Below, piece by piece: positions 49,112-61,897 of a DNA stretch of 64,000 bases. Every line of letters begins with the position of its first letter. Position 1 is the stretch's first letter. Under the pieces are notes generated by a model. That model was not told where the DNA came from. It saw only the letters and a list, made by a program, of their open reading frames with translations, and did not search any database. This DNA comes from a phage. The stretch is from NCBI GenBank assembly GCA_029945195.1, contig GCA_029945195.1_4117.1; one strand, given 5' to 3'. Made by a program: the position numbers and the translations under genes.

Positions 49112-49146
49112 CGAAAAGGGAGAACATCAGTTCTCCCTTTTTTATT
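49112..49146. terminator. Bidirectional rho-independent terminator between convergent genes
   Basis: 10-bp stem AAGGGAGAAC/GTTCTCCCTT flanked by an A-run upstream and a T-run downstream. Confidence 0.65.
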
Positions 49147-51109
49147 ATCTAATTGTTACCAATGTTCTTCCGTCGAAACGTACATCAGGAGTTGAAGGTA
49201 TACTAAACACTACGTTAGTGCCGTTAAACGTAACGCTATCGACCTCAACACGAGTATAGACACCAGGACTAACCTGTTCCTGTATCTCTGCTGTGACGAT
49301 GTTTGAGGCTGTTACAGTAAGGGTGTAGTAGTTACCACTTAATACCCAAGATGAAATTGTAAAAGCATCGGTTCTCACTGAACCTGAACCAATTGGAACC
49401 CATTGACCTTGAACTTTTTGCATTGAAGTACGCTCGGTATTGGAGTATGCAATCATACCATCAACGCCAACAGAGTTATCAATAGTAGCTAGTACTGGTA
49501 ATTGGATACCATATCTATTAAAACGTGTTCTTATAGTTCCATTATCATAGATACTTACATCAGCATAATTACCCATTGATAGTTTTAAATCAGAACTAAC
49601 TAATTGGATTGTACTTTGATTAGTAGTACTTTCTAATGTAATTATACCATTAGCTAATAGATTTATATTTTTAAATTTATTAGTTGTTCCATTGAAATTA
49701 GTGTTTGCTGTAAACGTACTAACTCCATTAACTGTAATTGTATCAGATGCAGCATCGCCTAATGTAGTATTACCTTGAATGTTCAAATTACCACTAGCAG
49801 TGATATTACTAGCTGATGTATCACCAGTCAATGTACTTGTACCATCAACCACAATATTACCATGAAACGCACTTTCACCATTTTTAAATTCAACTTGTAC
49901 TTTATTCATTGAACTAAATGAAATAATATTACTACTAGCACTTAGTCCAACATTAGTATTGGTTGCATTATCAAATCTTAGTACTGGGGTTGATGCTGGG
50001 GTTGAAGTTGTTTGGTATAATGTTAATGTTGAATTATTAATTCTAATACGTTCAGTTCCAGCAGTACTGAAACCAATTGCATCATCTGCTGGATGAAACA
50101 TACCAGTATTAGCGTCTGACCATTTTGCAGGATCATTACCTGGGTTATTGGTTGGATCAAATGGATTGTTATTAAATGTCAATGCTGGTGCTGCTGCACT
50201 ACCATAGACCACACCAAAACGCCCTGAGCCGCTTGTTCCATCATTATACATGGAATCACCAGTTCTACGTAAACACTCAATCACAACGTTATCTATGGAT
50301 GTTTGAACGGTCCCTGCGTTTGTCCTAAATTGACGATGATTTGCAATCATTACAGTATTGTCATATAATACTGAAGCAGCGGAAATGCTTGTTCTTGACT
50401 GGCGTAGACGTATGTTTTTATCTTCAGTTATAATAATCCAATCACCATCTGATAGTGCGGTTTGGTTCATTGGAACACCTGAAGCAAATGGTTTGGTTAA
50501 GTCAGCATCTGTTGCTAAATTTTTAAGACCATCATGACCAGTACTAGGAATAGATGCAGGAATAATTCTAGCGAAAGCGTATGTTACTAGTTTAGCACCA
50601 GATATATTTGGATTAGAGTCAACATAATATAAAATTTCAATCCAATTACCTTGTCCAGTTGGATTTGTAGGTGTAAATGTAACAGGACTTGTTTGTGGAT
50701 TATTTGCTTCATAATGGGCTTGTGCGGCATCCATAATACCACGAACAACATAATAATCACCATTTAGTGATGCTGCTGGTGCTGGTAGTGGTGTTTGTGC
50801 TAAAGGTGGATCAATATCATCTGGGATAGGATTGTATGTACCAACAAACTGTAAACCACTAGTTACTGAATCTGGTAATTGGGAAGTAAGAAGTTTACCA
50901 TTTGCATCTAAGTTTGCAAAGCGGCGATATGCCATAGTACCATCTTCAAAATCCAGAACACCTTCAAATGATTTCCATTCCTTATTGTATCTAATCATCC
51001 CTGATCTTATTACATCAGCGGTTTCTTTTGATGGTGCTTTCGGTAACTCTAAAAAAGATTTACTATCAATAATTACACCACCATCACCTCTAATTCGATT
51101 TATACTCAT
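49145..51109 (-). CDS. Tail fibre / structural protein (654 aa)
   Basis: GAGGAA SD before ATG; S/T/N/G-rich beta-type composition. Confidence 0.6.
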   Translation of the reverse strand: MSINRIRGDGGVIIDSKSFLELPKAPSKETADVIRSGMIRYNKEWKSFEGVLDFEDGTMAYRRFANLDANGKLLTSQLPDSVTSGLQFVGTYNPIPDDIDPPLAQTPLPAPAASLNGDYYVVRGIMDAAQAHYEANNPQTSPVTFTPTNPTGQGNWIEILYYVDSNPNISGAKLVTYAFARIIPASIPSTGHDGLKNLATDADLTKPFASGVPMNQTALSDGDWIIITEDKNIRLRQSRTSISAASVLYDNTVMIANHRQFRTNAGTVQTSIDNVVIECLRRTGDSMYNDGTSGSGRFGVVYGSAAAPALTFNNNPFDPTNNPGNDPAKWSDANTGMFHPADDAIGFSTAGTERIRINNSTLTLYQTTSTPASTPVLRFDNATNTNVGLSASSNIISFSSMNKVQVEFKNGESAFHGNIVVDGTSTLTGDTSASNITASGNLNIQGNTTLGDAASDTITVNGVSTFTANTNFNGTTNKFKNINLLANGIITLESTTNQSTIQLVSSDLKLSMGNYADVSIYDNGTIRTRFNRYGIQLPVLATIDNSVGVDGMIAYSNTERTSMQKVQGQWVPIGSGSVRTDAFTISSWVLSGNYYTLTVTASNIVTAEIQEQVSPGVYTRVEVDSVTFNGTNVVFSIPSTPDVRFDGRTLVTIR

Positions 51110-51193
51110 TTAAATATTTCCTCAGAATAGATTTATATGATGTATTTATTTTAGTTAAAAGAAAAGGCCAAGCATAGGCTTGACCTTAAAAAA

Positions 51194-60755: not shown

Positions 60756-60769
60756 TATGACATCCTCCC

Positions 60770-61897
60770 TTAAATATTATCTTGAATCGGTTGGATAGGA
60801 GCTTGCCATGAAAGAGTACAAATAATTTCCATTTTTCCATAAGGACTGTTGTTAACAGAATCGTTGAATACACATGAAATAATTTCATCAACATCGGATG
60901 CTGCATGATTAGTTTCATTAACAATAAAACGCATCTGACGATTGATATCAAAGTAGGAAGTTGGTGCAATTACAGTCCCACCAATATCTTCTTGTGCTTC
61001 ACCACCAAAACGTACAAACATATCAGTTACAGGAAGAGAATAAGGTTGTATAACGTTTACATCAATATTAGAAACTACATATCCAGCAGGACACGTACCA
61101 ATAACTAATAGTGCGTTAGTCCATGAGCTATCTATTGTATTTCTAATAGAAATTGTATCTTTACCTGGTGCACCTGGTTCGCCTTGTATACCTTGAATAC
61201 CTTGCTGACCTTCTTTACCACGGAATAGAATACCCTCACTCCACTCTTTTGCAGGAGGGGTAGTTGTAGTTACTTCATCAACATAATATAGTTTTCCATC
61301 AGTGTTGTTATAAAAACAATAATCAACTGGAAGATTTTCAATACTTGGAAATTGATCACCACTGCTATCAATATGGAAACGACCACGCGGACCTTGTTCA
61401 CCACGGAAAGGTATACCATCACTCCAAGTAGCAGTTACACTTTGATAGAAATAAAGTTTACCATCTTGAGTATTATAAAATGTATAGTTATCAAAAAGAC
61501 CAGTTGTTGGGAAAGTAGTTCCAGCACTATCAATGTGGAACGGCTTACCCGCTTCACCCGTATCACCTTTACCAAACTCAACACTAATCCATGTACTTGT
61601 CGGATCTTGTGCATCATTTGATTTAAAGTATAGAGTACTGGTATTGTTAGCCAAGCTTAAGTAGCACCACCCAAGTGGTTCACCAACTTTAAATTGTTCG
61701 GAAGGAATTTCAAAACCAATCTCATTAGGATAAAAGTTTTTACCATTCTCGCCATTCTGTCCTACAACAAGACCTAAATCTTGAATTGTGTTATCTGCAT
61801 AGGTTACAATTAAATGCCCAGCACCATTAATAACTAGACTTTTGATGCCGGAGTTATTACATGAACCACTGGACCCATTGTTAAATGAAATTGTCAT
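60770..61897 (-). CDS. Tail fibre protein with collagen-like Gly-X-Y segments and three tandem modules
   Basis: ATG 61897 with GGGAA SD (the track start at 61933 is a TTG); GKEGQQGIQGIQGEPGAPGKD is a run of 7 G-X-Y triplets; the FHIDS.G..FP module repeats. Confidence 0.55.
   Translation of the reverse strand: MTISFNNGSSGSCNNSGIKSLVINGAGHLIVTYADNTIQDLGLVVGQNGENGKNFYPNEIGFEIPSEQFKVGEPLGWCYLSLANNTSTLYFKSNDAQDPTSTWISVEFGKGDTGEAGKPFHIDSAGTTFPTTGLFDNYTFYNTQDGKLYFYQSVTATWSDGIPFRGEQGPRGRFHIDSSGDQFPSIENLPVDYCFYNNTDGKLYYVDEVTTTTPPAKEWSEGILFRGKEGQQGIQGIQGEPGAPGKDTISIRNTIDSSWTNALLVIGTCPAGYVVSNIDVNVIQPYSLPVTDMFVRFGGEAQEDIGGTVIAPTSYFDINRQMRFIVNETNHAASDVDEIISCVFNDSVNNSPYGKMEIICTLSWQAPIQPIQDNI

What the first reader, a model, noticed from the sequence alone, without database searches (positions are those of the whole stretch)
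49145..61897. Minus-strand tail fibre/tailspike array with shared N-terminal anchors, a giant repetitive fibre and collagen-like segments
Six consecutive minus-strand genes encode S/T/G/N-rich fibrous proteins. Two adjacent genes (57701-58597 and 58614-60755) begin with nearly identical ~25-residue N-termini (MAVFSN(L/F)EGTM...FILGK.GA) and diverge thereafter, as expected for interchangeable receptor-binding or depolymerase modules on a common anchor. The 1841-aa fibre has at least four tandem ~95-aa repeats and a ~130-aa duplication that are near-identical at the DNA level, which invites recombinational expansion and contraction. The 60770-61897 product has three modules each ending in a short Gly-X-Y run.
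Basis: seen in the sequence. Interest (0 to 1): 0.5.

Follow-up and report, generated by a model that had tools for sequence, protein, structure and literature searches.

The report
Jumbo coliphage tail-fibre gene cluster
This is the already-sequenced host-attachment gene cluster of a 121Q-type giant E. coli phage: a long repetitive fibre with its helper protein, a short collagen-like fibre, and a slime-digesting (colanic acid) spike that carries the same attachment end as its neighbour. It is ordinary in kind, but the shared attachment module has no description in the literature I searched.

Summary
The window is an Asteriusvirus (Rak2-like jumbo coliphage). Region 49145-61933 is 100% identical to phage SHEFM2K, and its proteins are essentially identical to 121Q gp569-574.

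Confirmed:
- Six minus-strand genes sit at the stated coordinates.
- The 298-aa and 713-aa proteins share an N-terminus, over ~105 aa rather than 25 (38% identity, E 1e-19).
- The 375-aa protein has four conserved Gly-X-Y runs, not three.

Not confirmed:
- The 1841-aa fibre has no ~95-aa repeats. It has four ~140-aa repeats (42-57% aa, 55-66% nt identity) and one ~170-aa duplication (60% aa, 65% nt).
- The fibre repeats are not near-identical in DNA. The longest exact repeat is 30 nt, TRF finds no long-period array, and fibre length is unchanged in 121Q and ELP-22.
- The 259-aa gene is not fibrous. It carries DUF4376, a tail-fibre chaperone domain.

Interpretation: a conserved five-gene tail-fibre module of the Rak2-like clade, plus an Asteriusvirus-specific chimeric spike. 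That spike joins a gp572-type N-terminal module to a colanidase body 57% identical to phi92 gp150. A profile search finds the first ~70 residues at the N-terminus of proteins with other bodies (beta-helix, S74-chaperoned, BNR sialidase-like), which supports an adaptor role.

It is a known kind of system. Interest is modest.

The parts
60770..61897 (-). g375 (121Q gp574 homologue): segmented collagen-like short fibre. It has small beta modules separated by Gly-X-Y runs at 61736-61762, 61541-61567, 61376-61402 and 61157-61219, and a C-terminal jelly-roll head at 60806-61156.
58614..60755 (-). g713 (gp573): chimeric colanidase tailspike. N-terminal module at 60444-60755 (aa 1-104); colanidase body at 58620-60470 (aa 96-712).
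   Evidence: BLASTP to g298. phmmer to PDB 6E0V, phi92 gp150, E 3.8e-235. 57% identity to gp150 aa 189-801, with the gp150 N-terminus unrelated. PHROG 6117. Precomputed PF27800 WcaM. NCBIfam WcaM partial hit.
57701..58597 (-). g298 (gp572): core virion protein. N-terminal module at 58271-58597 (aa 1-109), followed by two Ig-like beta-sandwich domains.
57665..57693 (-). Terminator-like hairpin (13-bp stem plus T run) between g298 and the fibre gene. It ends the first transcription unit, g375-g713-g298.
   Evidence: This is a consensus scan only and the function is inferred.
52038..57563 (-). g1841 (gp571): long, 180.4 kDa T/S/G/A/V-rich fibre. 170-aa duplication at 56067-57143 (aa 141-499). Four ~140-aa repeats at 53955-55718 (aa 616-1203). 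C-terminal region homologous to the phiTE fibre at 52050-52595 (aa 1657-1838).
   Evidence: repeats. PHROG 4549 tail fiber, E 9e-227. PDB 9CUY chain g, E 4.4e-30. The 180.38 kDa protein was detected in phAPEC6 virions. Coordinates verified.
51194..51973 (-). g259 (gp570): DUF4376 protein immediately downstream of the fibre gene. Probably the fibre's chaperone or cap.
   Evidence: Pfam DUF4376, 34.5 bits against a cut-off of 25, aa 135-236. DUF4376 proteins are tail-fibre chaperones in Alteromonas phages V22 and A5. The CBB orthologue CBB_225 is in virions with 68.5% coverage.
51164..51187 (-). Terminator-like hairpin after g259. It ends the second unit, fibre plus chaperone.
   Evidence: consensus scan only.
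49145..51109 (-). g654 (gp569): clade-conserved structural protein. It has a conserved ~430-aa N-terminal part, one copy of a variable-number ~45-51-aa repeat (about 49667-49858, motif LGDAASDTITVNG at aa 450), and a conserved C-terminal domain.
   Evidence: No relative with a solved structure. The CBB orthologue CBB_224 is in virions.

Best explanation
The region is the tail-fibre/adhesin module of an Asteriusvirus (121Q-type, Rak2-like jumbo myophage). It lies between the thymidylate synthase gene and the tail-completion (T4 gp15-like) genes.

A five-gene core is conserved across the clade:
- g375, a trimeric short fibre built of small beta modules joined by short collagen triple-helix segments and ending in a jelly-roll head.
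- g298, a small protein with an N-terminal module and two Ig-like domains.
- g1841, a roughly 100-nm-class repetitive fibre.
- g259, its DUF4376 chaperone or cap.
- g654, a second fibre-like protein with a variable number of short repeats.

Asteriusviruses have inserted a sixth gene, g713, between g375 and g298. It is a chimera. Its first ~100 residues are a diverged copy of the g298 N-terminal module. The rest is a colanic-acid-degrading beta-helix tailspike body of the phi92 gp150 type.

Inferred mechanism:
- The shared module consists of a ~65-aa N-terminal adaptor plus one copy of a widespread ~45-aa fibre repeat.
- It docks both proteins to the same kind of site on the virion.
- The phage therefore carries an enzyme that strips the colanic-acid slime layer, letting the fibres reach the cell surface.

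What is shown and what is inferred:
- Shown: gene content, homologies, chimeric junction, repeat anatomy, conservation.
- Inferred: trimeric state, docking function and partner, presence of the colanidase in the virion, and which fibre seen by electron microscopy each protein forms.
For: Identity of the region
- 100% identical to SHEFM2K and 99.7% to 121Q. Five of the six proteins are identical to 121Q's. g713 differs at one residue, and g375 at two substitutions plus a 4-aa indel.

Synteny of the core
- GAP32 and CBB have the same five genes without the colanidase.
- RaK2 keeps only the g654 homologue, a stand-alone 115-aa N-module and the g375 homologue.
- All five CBB orthologues were found in virions by mass spectrometry. 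In phAPEC6 the 180.38 and 40.99 kDa proteins were found.

The chimera
- g713 aa 1-104 matches g298 aa 1-109.
- g713 aa 96-712 matches phi92 gp150 aa 189-801 at 57% identity (PDB 6E0V).
- gp150 is reported as a colanic-acid hydrolase (PMC13450770).
- Related colanidase bodies occur in 255 phage records of many genera.

The adaptor
- Profile search: residues 1 to ~70 head proteins with a Beta_helix body, a Peptidase_S74 body, BNR/sialidase-like bodies and a colanidase body.
- Two such spikes sit on one phage contig.
- Residues ~65-110 are a repeat found up to 15 times in large proteins, often alongside collagen.

Other points
- The RaK2 stand-alone protein ends exactly at the module boundary...WKPL.
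- Collagen-like runs and jelly-roll head.
Against: - The colanidase (77.7 kDa), g298, g259 and g654 were not among the virion proteins recovered from phAPEC6, which is 99.7% identical here.
- PHROGs files the colanidase under 'moron/auxiliary', not 'tail'.
- No tool here could test protein-protein docking or trimerisation.
- The promoter scan is no better than chance (46 sites found against 50.9 expected), and the terminators are consensus matches only.
Confidence: 0.7

Rival explanations
1. The shared N-terminus is only the trace of a local duplication, or is a folding/trimerisation nucleus. It is not a virion-docking adaptor, and the two proteins need not occupy equivalent sites.
For: - The two genes are adjacent, and the module is only 38% identical between them.
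- The DNA is 76% identical over the first 66 nt and 58% over 150 nt.
- There is no detectable similarity to solved anchor domains.
- In RaK2 the module exists alone, so it has some function without a body.
Against: - The module is always at the extreme N-terminus and is joined to at least four unrelated bodies in other phages, including contigs with no other detected similarity to this cluster. That is the signature of an adaptor.
- From knowledge of tailspike families: trimerisation of beta-helix spikes is normally driven by the body and C-terminus. The phi92 gp150 structure 6E0V/6E0W was solved from a 626-aa construct lacking most of its own N-terminal domain.
Confidence: 0.15
2. The colanidase is a soluble, non-structural enzyme released at lysis (an auxiliary 'moron'), not a tailspike.
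For: - It was not detected in the phAPEC6 virion proteome.
- Its PHROG category is 'moron, auxiliary metabolic gene and host takeover'.
- The gene is split into two ORFs in JNE01 and vB_Ec-M-J, so it may be dispensable.
Against: - It is 57% identical over the whole body to phi92 gp150, which the phi92 record annotates as a 'colanidase tailspike' and the phi92 cryo-EM paper lists among its putative fibre/spike proteins.
- It sits inside a structural operon between two virion proteins.
- It carries the N-module of a protein whose CBB orthologue is in virions.
- The phAPEC6 mass spectrometry also missed g298, g259 and g654, whose orthologues are virion proteins in CBB, so a negative result there is weak.
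Confidence: 0.15
3. The 1841-aa protein forms the long 'hairy' whiskers seen on the tail (and perhaps the capsid) of phAPEC6 and CBB, not a baseplate long tail fibre of the T4 gp34 type as annotated.
For: - Electron microscopy of phAPEC6, CBB and fEgEco12 shows only short baseplate fibres (28.6 nm in CBB) plus hairs of about 119 nm.
- From my own knowledge, T4 gp34 (1289 aa) spans about 70 nm, or roughly 0.054 nm per residue. At that ratio 1841 aa gives about 100 nm, too long for the short fibres.
- There is no Pfam or NCBIfam match to any T4 fibre family.
Against: - GAP32 has the orthologue. The CBB authors did not see hairs reported for GAP32 and could not assign the hairs to any gene.
- The homologous phiTE protein is deposited in that phage's baseplate model, 9CUY.
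Confidence: 0.3
4. The fibre repeats are recombination hot spots that change copy number between isolates.
For: - A 30-nt exact repeat exists at a spacing of 435 nt.
- The JNE01 fibre has three copies of the 170-aa unit against two here. Fibre lengths in the genus range from 1834 to 2120 aa.
Against: - Repeat copies are only 55-66% identical in DNA.
- TRF finds no long-period array.
- 121Q and ELP-22 have fibres of exactly 1841 aa, 100% and 99.6% identical in protein. Nine further records align over the whole 12.8-kb cluster at 98.5-100% nt identity with spans within 12 nt of the query, and ELP-22's longer span is an extra gene.
- Copy number differs only in a fibre about 50% identical in protein (JNE01).
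Confidence: 0.05

Closest known systems
Escherichia phage 121Q gp569-574 (also SHEFM2K, phAPEC6, G17, PBECO4, Sharanji): annotated Asteriusvirus genomes
   Same: Same genes. Five proteins are 100% identical; g713 is 712/713; g375 differs by two substitutions and a 4-aa indel. They are annotated as structural protein, tail fiber protein, colanic acid degradation and tail protein.
   Different: Nothing differs in sequence. The annotations do not record the shared N-module, the chimeric origin of gp573, the DUF4376 chaperone role or the collagen-like architecture. I found no paper describing these.
Phage phi92 gp150 colanidase tailspike (PDB 6E0V/6E0W)
   Same: The body is 57% identical over 617 residues. 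It belongs to the same WcaM-like beta-helix family.
   Different: gp150 has an unrelated 188-aa N-terminal domain and belongs to a 148-kb Justusliebigvirus with a different baseplate. Here the body is fused to the Rak2-clade N-module.
RaK2 / phiK64-1 (Alcyoneusvirus) branched adsorption complex, and the CBA120 TSP1-4 system
   Same: The same principle applies: depolymerase or fibre proteins are attached through conserved N-terminal domains and bodies are exchanged. RaK2 is a clade relative with a syntenic locus.
   Different: - RaK2's nine long-tail-fibre proteins (gp526-534) lie in a different gene cluster and use CBA120-TSP-like D1/XD domains. The module here shows no significant similarity to those.
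- At the syntenic RaK2 locus only a stand-alone 115-aa N-module remains.
Pectobacterium phage phiTE 793-aa putative tail fibre (PDB 9CUY chain g); PHROG 4549
   Same: Homologous in the C-terminal ~180 aa and in part of the shaft (E 4.4e-30). phiTE's fibres are part of the baseplate fibre network.
   Different: The fibre here is 2.3 times longer, through internal duplications of ~140- and ~170-aa units. The N-termini are not detectably similar.
DUF4376 tail-fibre chaperones or 'caps' of Alteromonas phages V22 gp27 and A5 gp9
   Same: Same Pfam domain, and the same position immediately downstream of the fibre gene.
   Different: Chaperone activity is untested here. The CBB orthologue is abundant in virions, which fits the 'stays bound' or cap variant better than a purely transient chaperone.

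Membership tests
phi92 gp150-type colanidase tailspike (WcaM-like beta-helix) | Sequence homology across the whole catalytic body to the solved enzyme | tested here: met
   phmmer E 3.8e-235 to 6E0V, aa 96-712. 57% identity to gp150 aa 189-801. PHROG 6117, E 2e-263.
phi92 gp150-type colanidase tailspike (WcaM-like beta-helix) | Recognised right-handed beta-helix / pectate-lyase-like or WcaM profile above the curated threshold | tested here: inconclusive
   Pfam Pect-lyase_RHGA_epim scores 24.3 bits against a cut-off of 27. NCBIfam WcaM gives a partial hit of 92.6 bits against a cut-off of 794.6. A precomputed PF27800 WcaM hit is listed.
phi92 gp150-type colanidase tailspike (WcaM-like beta-helix) | Hydrolysis of colanic acid | not testable with these tools
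   Activity is reported for gp150 only (PMC13450770, citing its reference 25).
phi92 gp150-type colanidase tailspike (WcaM-like beta-helix) | Being a structural component of the virion | tested here: inconclusive
   No 77.7 kDa protein appears in the phAPEC6 virion proteome. There is no orthologue at this locus in CBB or GAP32.
N-terminal anchor + exchangeable receptor-binding body (modular RBP architecture) | The same N-terminal module joined to unrelated C-terminal bodies | tested here: met
   In the window, g298 and g713. Elsewhere, Beta_helix, Peptidase_S74, BNR/sialidase-like and colanidase bodies, and stand-alone forms.
N-terminal anchor + exchangeable receptor-binding body (modular RBP architecture) | The module physically docks the protein to the tail or to another fibre | not testable with these tools
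   No multimer prediction or experiment was available. The monomer AF2 model is of low confidence over residues 1-70.
CBA120 TSP / RaK2 TFP-type head (D1, XD) anchor domains | Fold or sequence similarity of the N-module to D1/XD domains | tested here: not met
Collagen triple-helix repeat (Pfam PF01391) | Contiguous Gly-X-Y repeats above the Pfam threshold | tested here: not met
   15.9 bits against a cut-off of 27.2. The runs are only 3, 3, 3 and 7 triplets long.
Collagen-like segmented phage fibre (works like) | Gly-X-Y runs conserved in register across homologues and lying between folded modules | tested here: met
   G111, G114, G166, G169, G172, G227 and G230 are invariant; G233 and G242 are nearly so. 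Homologue P0135 has long collagen in place of the modules. The AF2 model has modules of pLDDT >85 separated by linkers below 50.
T4 gp34-like long tail fibre proximal subunit (as annotated in some records) | Profile match to a T4 long-tail-fibre family | tested here: not met
   No Pfam or NCBIfam hit other than a sub-threshold Bactofilin match. The only solved relative is the phiTE fibre.
phiTE / PHROG 4549 tail fibre | Significant sequence homology including the C-terminal domain | tested here: met
   PHROG 4549, E 8.9e-227. 9CUY chain g, E 4.4e-30, aa 1657-1838 matched to 612-792.
DUF4376 tail-fibre chaperone | DUF4376 domain above the Pfam threshold and a gene directly downstream of a fibre gene | tested here: met
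   34.5 bits against a cut-off of 25. The gene starts 64 nt after the fibre stop codon.
DUF4376 tail-fibre chaperone | Requirement for fibre folding, or binding to the fibre tip | not testable with these tools
   No experiment was possible.

The most novel reading that the evidence does not exclude
The ~65-aa 'MA(V/I)FSN(L/F)EGTM..F.LGK.G' module is a docking adaptor I found no description of. It occurs in Rak2-like jumbo phages and in other large phages. It would plug enzymatic spikes (colanidase, other beta-helix depolymerases, sialidase-like propellers, S74-chaperoned fibres) onto a conserved partner. That partner might be the adjacent collagen-like segmented fibre gp574, which accompanies the module in every clade member examined, including RaK2. 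This would be a branching system unrelated to the CBA120-TSP, T4 gp10 or KP32 types, and a new handle for retargeting jumbo phages.
Probability: 0.25. Interest if true: 0.5.

Novelty: new member of a known kind. Interest (0 to 1): 0.3.

Why it matters
Jumbo Rak2-like phages are being isolated as therapy candidates, yet which proteins form their baseplate fibres and their unusual 'hairs' is unresolved.

This analysis adds four things:
- A gene-by-gene anatomy of the one fibre cluster conserved across the clade.
- Evidence that the coliphage lineage gained a colanic-acid depolymerase by fusing a foreign enzyme body to a resident N-terminal module.
- A defined module boundary, at about residue 100-112, where bodies could be swapped.
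- A correction to the idea that the giant fibre is a recombination-prone repeat array.

It does not reveal a new kind of system.

Tried and rejected
(1) blastp self-comparison of the fibre returned only the self-hit. I replaced it with an offset-identity scan and local alignments.

(2) By eye, the g375 modules (…Y.FYN..DGKLY…W) looked related to residues 70-110 of the shared N-module. hhalign gives probability 0.13% and the A3 profile does not hit g375, so I dropped this as unsupported.

(4) g654 and g375 have no PDB relative, whether searched by sequence or by profile.

(5) I considered whether the RaK2 115-aa protein is a frameshift remnant. Translation shows an intact module ending at WKPL, so I rejected this.

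(6) I considered RaK2 gp098 (the secondary RBP) as the orthologue of g298. [quoted passage not shown] The homologue of the g298 N-module at the syntenic RaK2 locus is the 115-aa ORF061w.

(7) PF27114 'Phage_tail_beta', listed for the metagenomic spikes, is not recorded for the window's proteins. It therefore does not describe the shared module.

(8) Contexts of the BNR-type proteins (L017, L018) start at the contig edge and show no other detected similarity to this cluster. They could not test the 'docks onto gp574' idea.

(9) The sigma-70 promoter scan was uninformative: 46 sites against 50.9 expected.

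
Full report
**What the window is.** The region 49145-61933 is 100% identical to Escherichia phage SHEFM2K, 99.7% to 121Q, and ≥98.5% to ten further jumbo coliphage records. These belong to the genus Asteriusvirus, within the Rak2-like jumbo myophages. The six minus-strand ORFs correspond to 121Q gp569-574. Five of the six proteins are 100% identical to 121Q's. g713 is 712/713, and g375 differs by two substitutions and a 4-aa indel near its N-terminus. 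Public annotations call them structural protein, virion structural protein, tail fiber protein, virion structural protein, colanic acid degradation and tail protein. The cluster lies between the thymidylate synthase gene and a block that includes the T4 gp15-like tail completion protein.

**Checking the observation: the shared N-terminus.**
- The 298-aa and 713-aa proteins align over 109/104 residues at 38% identity, E 1e-19, with 17 of the first 22 residues identical.
- There are only these two copies in the window.

**Checking the observation: the fibre repeats.**
- The fibre is repetitive, but not as described.
- An offset scan gives maxima at 138, 145 and 155 aa (four tandem copies, aa 616-1203) and at 170 aa (aa 141-330 vs 316-499). 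Nothing appears near 95 or 130 aa.
- The copies share 42-57% amino-acid and 55-66% nucleotide identity. The duplication shares 60% and 65%.
- Ungapped DNA matches reach 73-76% over 216-275 nt. The longest exact repeat is 30 nt.
- Tandem Repeats Finder reports no long-period array.

**Checking the observation: composition and Gly-X-Y runs.**
- The six proteins have S/T/G/N fractions of 0.37, 0.24, 0.49, 0.38, 0.33 and 0.34. Other ORFs of the window average 0.26 ± 0.06. The 259-aa protein is not enriched.
- The 375-aa protein has four Gly-X-Y runs of 3, 3, 3 and 7 triplets, against 0.33 expected by chance.

**The conserved core.**
- g298, g375 and g654 each have full-length homologues throughout the Rak2-like clade.
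- GAP32 and CBB carry the same cluster in the same place with five genes: a 645/640-aa protein, a DUF4376 protein, a fibre of about 1555 aa, a 287-aa protein and a ~380-aa protein. They have no colanidase there.
- In CBB all five orthologues (CBB_224-228) were detected in virions by mass spectrometry.
- In phAPEC6 only the 180.38 kDa and 40.99 kDa proteins were detected. These masses match g1841 (180.38 kDa) and g375 (40.98 kDa).
- RaK2 has a reduced locus: a 510-aa g654 homologue, a 115-aa protein that is just the N-module and ends at ...WKPL, and a 371-aa g375 homologue.

**The colanidase is a chimera.**
- Residues 96-712 of g713 match PDB 6E0V (phi92 gp150) at E 3.8e-235. They are 57% identical to gp150 residues 189-801.
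- gp150's own 188-residue N-terminus is unrelated.
- gp150 is reported to hydrolyse the β-1,4 glucose-fucose bond of colanic acid.
- Related bodies occur in 255 phage records of many genera.
- An enzyme body common among coliphages has therefore been joined, at about residue 100, to a copy of the N-module of the neighbouring core gene.
- The N-module tblastn supports this. Every listed coliphage relative has two places per record. RaK2, K64-1, GAP32, CBB and the Erwinia, Yersinia and Salmonella relatives have one.

**What the shared module is.** A profile of the module, searched against 1.84 billion representative proteins, gave 403 hits of two kinds.
- Residues 1 to ~70 occur only at the extreme N-terminus of proteins with different bodies:
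  - colanidase (723 aa);
  - right-handed Beta_helix (705 aa);
  - Peptidase_S74 intramolecular-chaperone fibre (780 aa);
  - BNR/sialidase-like propellers with CBM_5_12 (1204-1366 aa);
  - stand-alone 113-115-aa forms.
- Two of these spikes lie on one 120-kb phage contig. Others lie on contigs with no other detected similarity to this cluster.
- Residues ~65-110 are one copy of a widespread ~45-aa repeat, of the form '..G...P....G..GD.Y......I..IY.K....W'. It occurs up to 15 times in large proteins, often next to collagen repeats.
- This architecture is what is expected of an N-terminal adaptor.
- Its partner and its fold remain unknown. There is no PDB relative. AF2 confidence is low over residues 1-70. 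Fold matches are weak.

**The other parts.**
- g298: beyond the N-module it has two Ig-like sandwiches.
- g1841: it belongs to PHROG 4549. It is homologous, especially at its C-terminus, to the 793-aa fibre deposited in the phiTE baseplate model.
- g259: it carries DUF4376 above threshold. This domain marks tail-fibre chaperones or caps encoded directly after fibre genes.
- Terminator-like hairpins at 57665-57693 and 51164-51187 suggest three transcription units: g375-g713-g298, then fibre plus chaperone, then g654. This is a consensus scan only.

**Repeat dynamics.**
- The fibre is exactly 1841 aa in 121Q and ELP-22. It is 1834 aa, with the same repeat offsets, in ph0011, which is 87% identical in protein.
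- The JNE01 fibre, about 50% identical in protein, has three 170-aa units (2120 aa). That of vB_Ec-M-J has 1988 aa. Both phages also carry a second paralogous fibre gene.
- Unit number therefore changes only over long evolutionary distances.
- g654 behaves differently. It carries one 'LGD…DT(L/I)TVN' unit here, two in a 699-aa homologue, three in the 756- and 763-aa homologues (85% and 76% identical over their full length, and 88% over 73% of it), eight in a 1050-aa metagenomic one, and none in the RaK2 type. ph0011's homologue is also 763 aa.

**Verdict.**
- The finding points at a real, already sequenced and partly annotated tail-fibre cluster.
- The 'near-identical DNA repeats' claim is wrong, and one of the six genes is a chaperone-type protein.
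- The kind of system is well known: N-terminal adaptor plus exchangeable receptor-binding or depolymerase bodies, and a fibre with a downstream chaperone.
- I found no description of this particular adaptor, or of the chimeric origin of gp573, in the literature I could search.

Noticed in passing
window 49667-49858 (g654 aa ~418-481): g654 carries one copy of a ~45-51-aa unit (motif LGDAASDTITVNG). Homologues have 0 (RaK2 type, 510 aa), 2 (699 aa), 3 (756 and 763 aa; ph0011's homologue is also 763 aa) or 8 copies (1050 aa). This, not the giant fibre, is the gene in the cluster whose repeat number varies among fairly close relatives. The same motif occurs once in the fibre, at aa 1683.
   Followed up: partly
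L004 2553-4289 (phage BAU.Micro_ELP-22); L008 10923-15809 (JNE01); L005 5844-10764 (vB_Ec-M-J): The cluster is a site of gene gain. ELP-22 has an extra 578-aa 'tail needle knob' gene between the gp569 and gp570 homologues. JNE01 and vB_Ec-M-J carry a second paralogous giant fibre gene: 1628 aa in JNE01, and split into 1049 + 582 aa in vB_Ec-M-J.
   Followed up: partly
L008 16833-18975; L005 11797-13939: The colanidase gene is annotated as two ORFs in JNE01 (141-aa N-module piece + 588 aa) and in vB_Ec-M-J (360 + 351 aa). This is either frameshift decay or sequencing error.
   Followed up: no
window 53-5986: Three adjacent plus-strand paralogues (862, 195 and 939 aa; PHROGs 3573/26864, function unknown). 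In a 120-kb metagenomic phage contig (L012), genes of matching size and order (902/199/919 aa) are flanked by two spikes that carry the MAVFSN-type N-module (780 aa with Peptidase_S74, 705 aa with Beta_helix). I did not test homology between the two sets.
   Followed up: partly
window 10494-13821: A second pair of tail-fibre-annotated genes lies far from the cluster: 121Q gp508 (178 aa, PHROG 32568 tail fiber) and gp509 (929 aa, PHROG 2871 tail protein).
   Followed up: no
window 48181-49110 and 49113-49142: The thymidylate synthase gene that converges on the cluster ends in a 13-bp hairpin, which could terminate both converging units. The 35.5 kDa thymidylate synthase is listed in the phAPEC6 virion proteome (3 peptides), which is odd for a metabolic enzyme.
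   Followed up: no
window ~61870-61881 (g375 aa 7-10): The only length difference from 121Q across the 12.8-kb cluster is a 12-nt indel (NGSS) in the low-complexity N-terminus of g375. It is not in the Gly-X-Y runs.
   Followed up: yes
window 62008-63123: Two plus-strand genes (165 and 202 aa; PHROGs 13657 and 11259, function unknown) diverge from the cluster. They are conserved next to the g375 homologue in RaK2, GAP32 and CBB. The CBB homologue of the 202-aa protein (CBB_230) is in that phage's virion proteome table. Both are candidates for partners of the fibre proteins.
   Followed up: no
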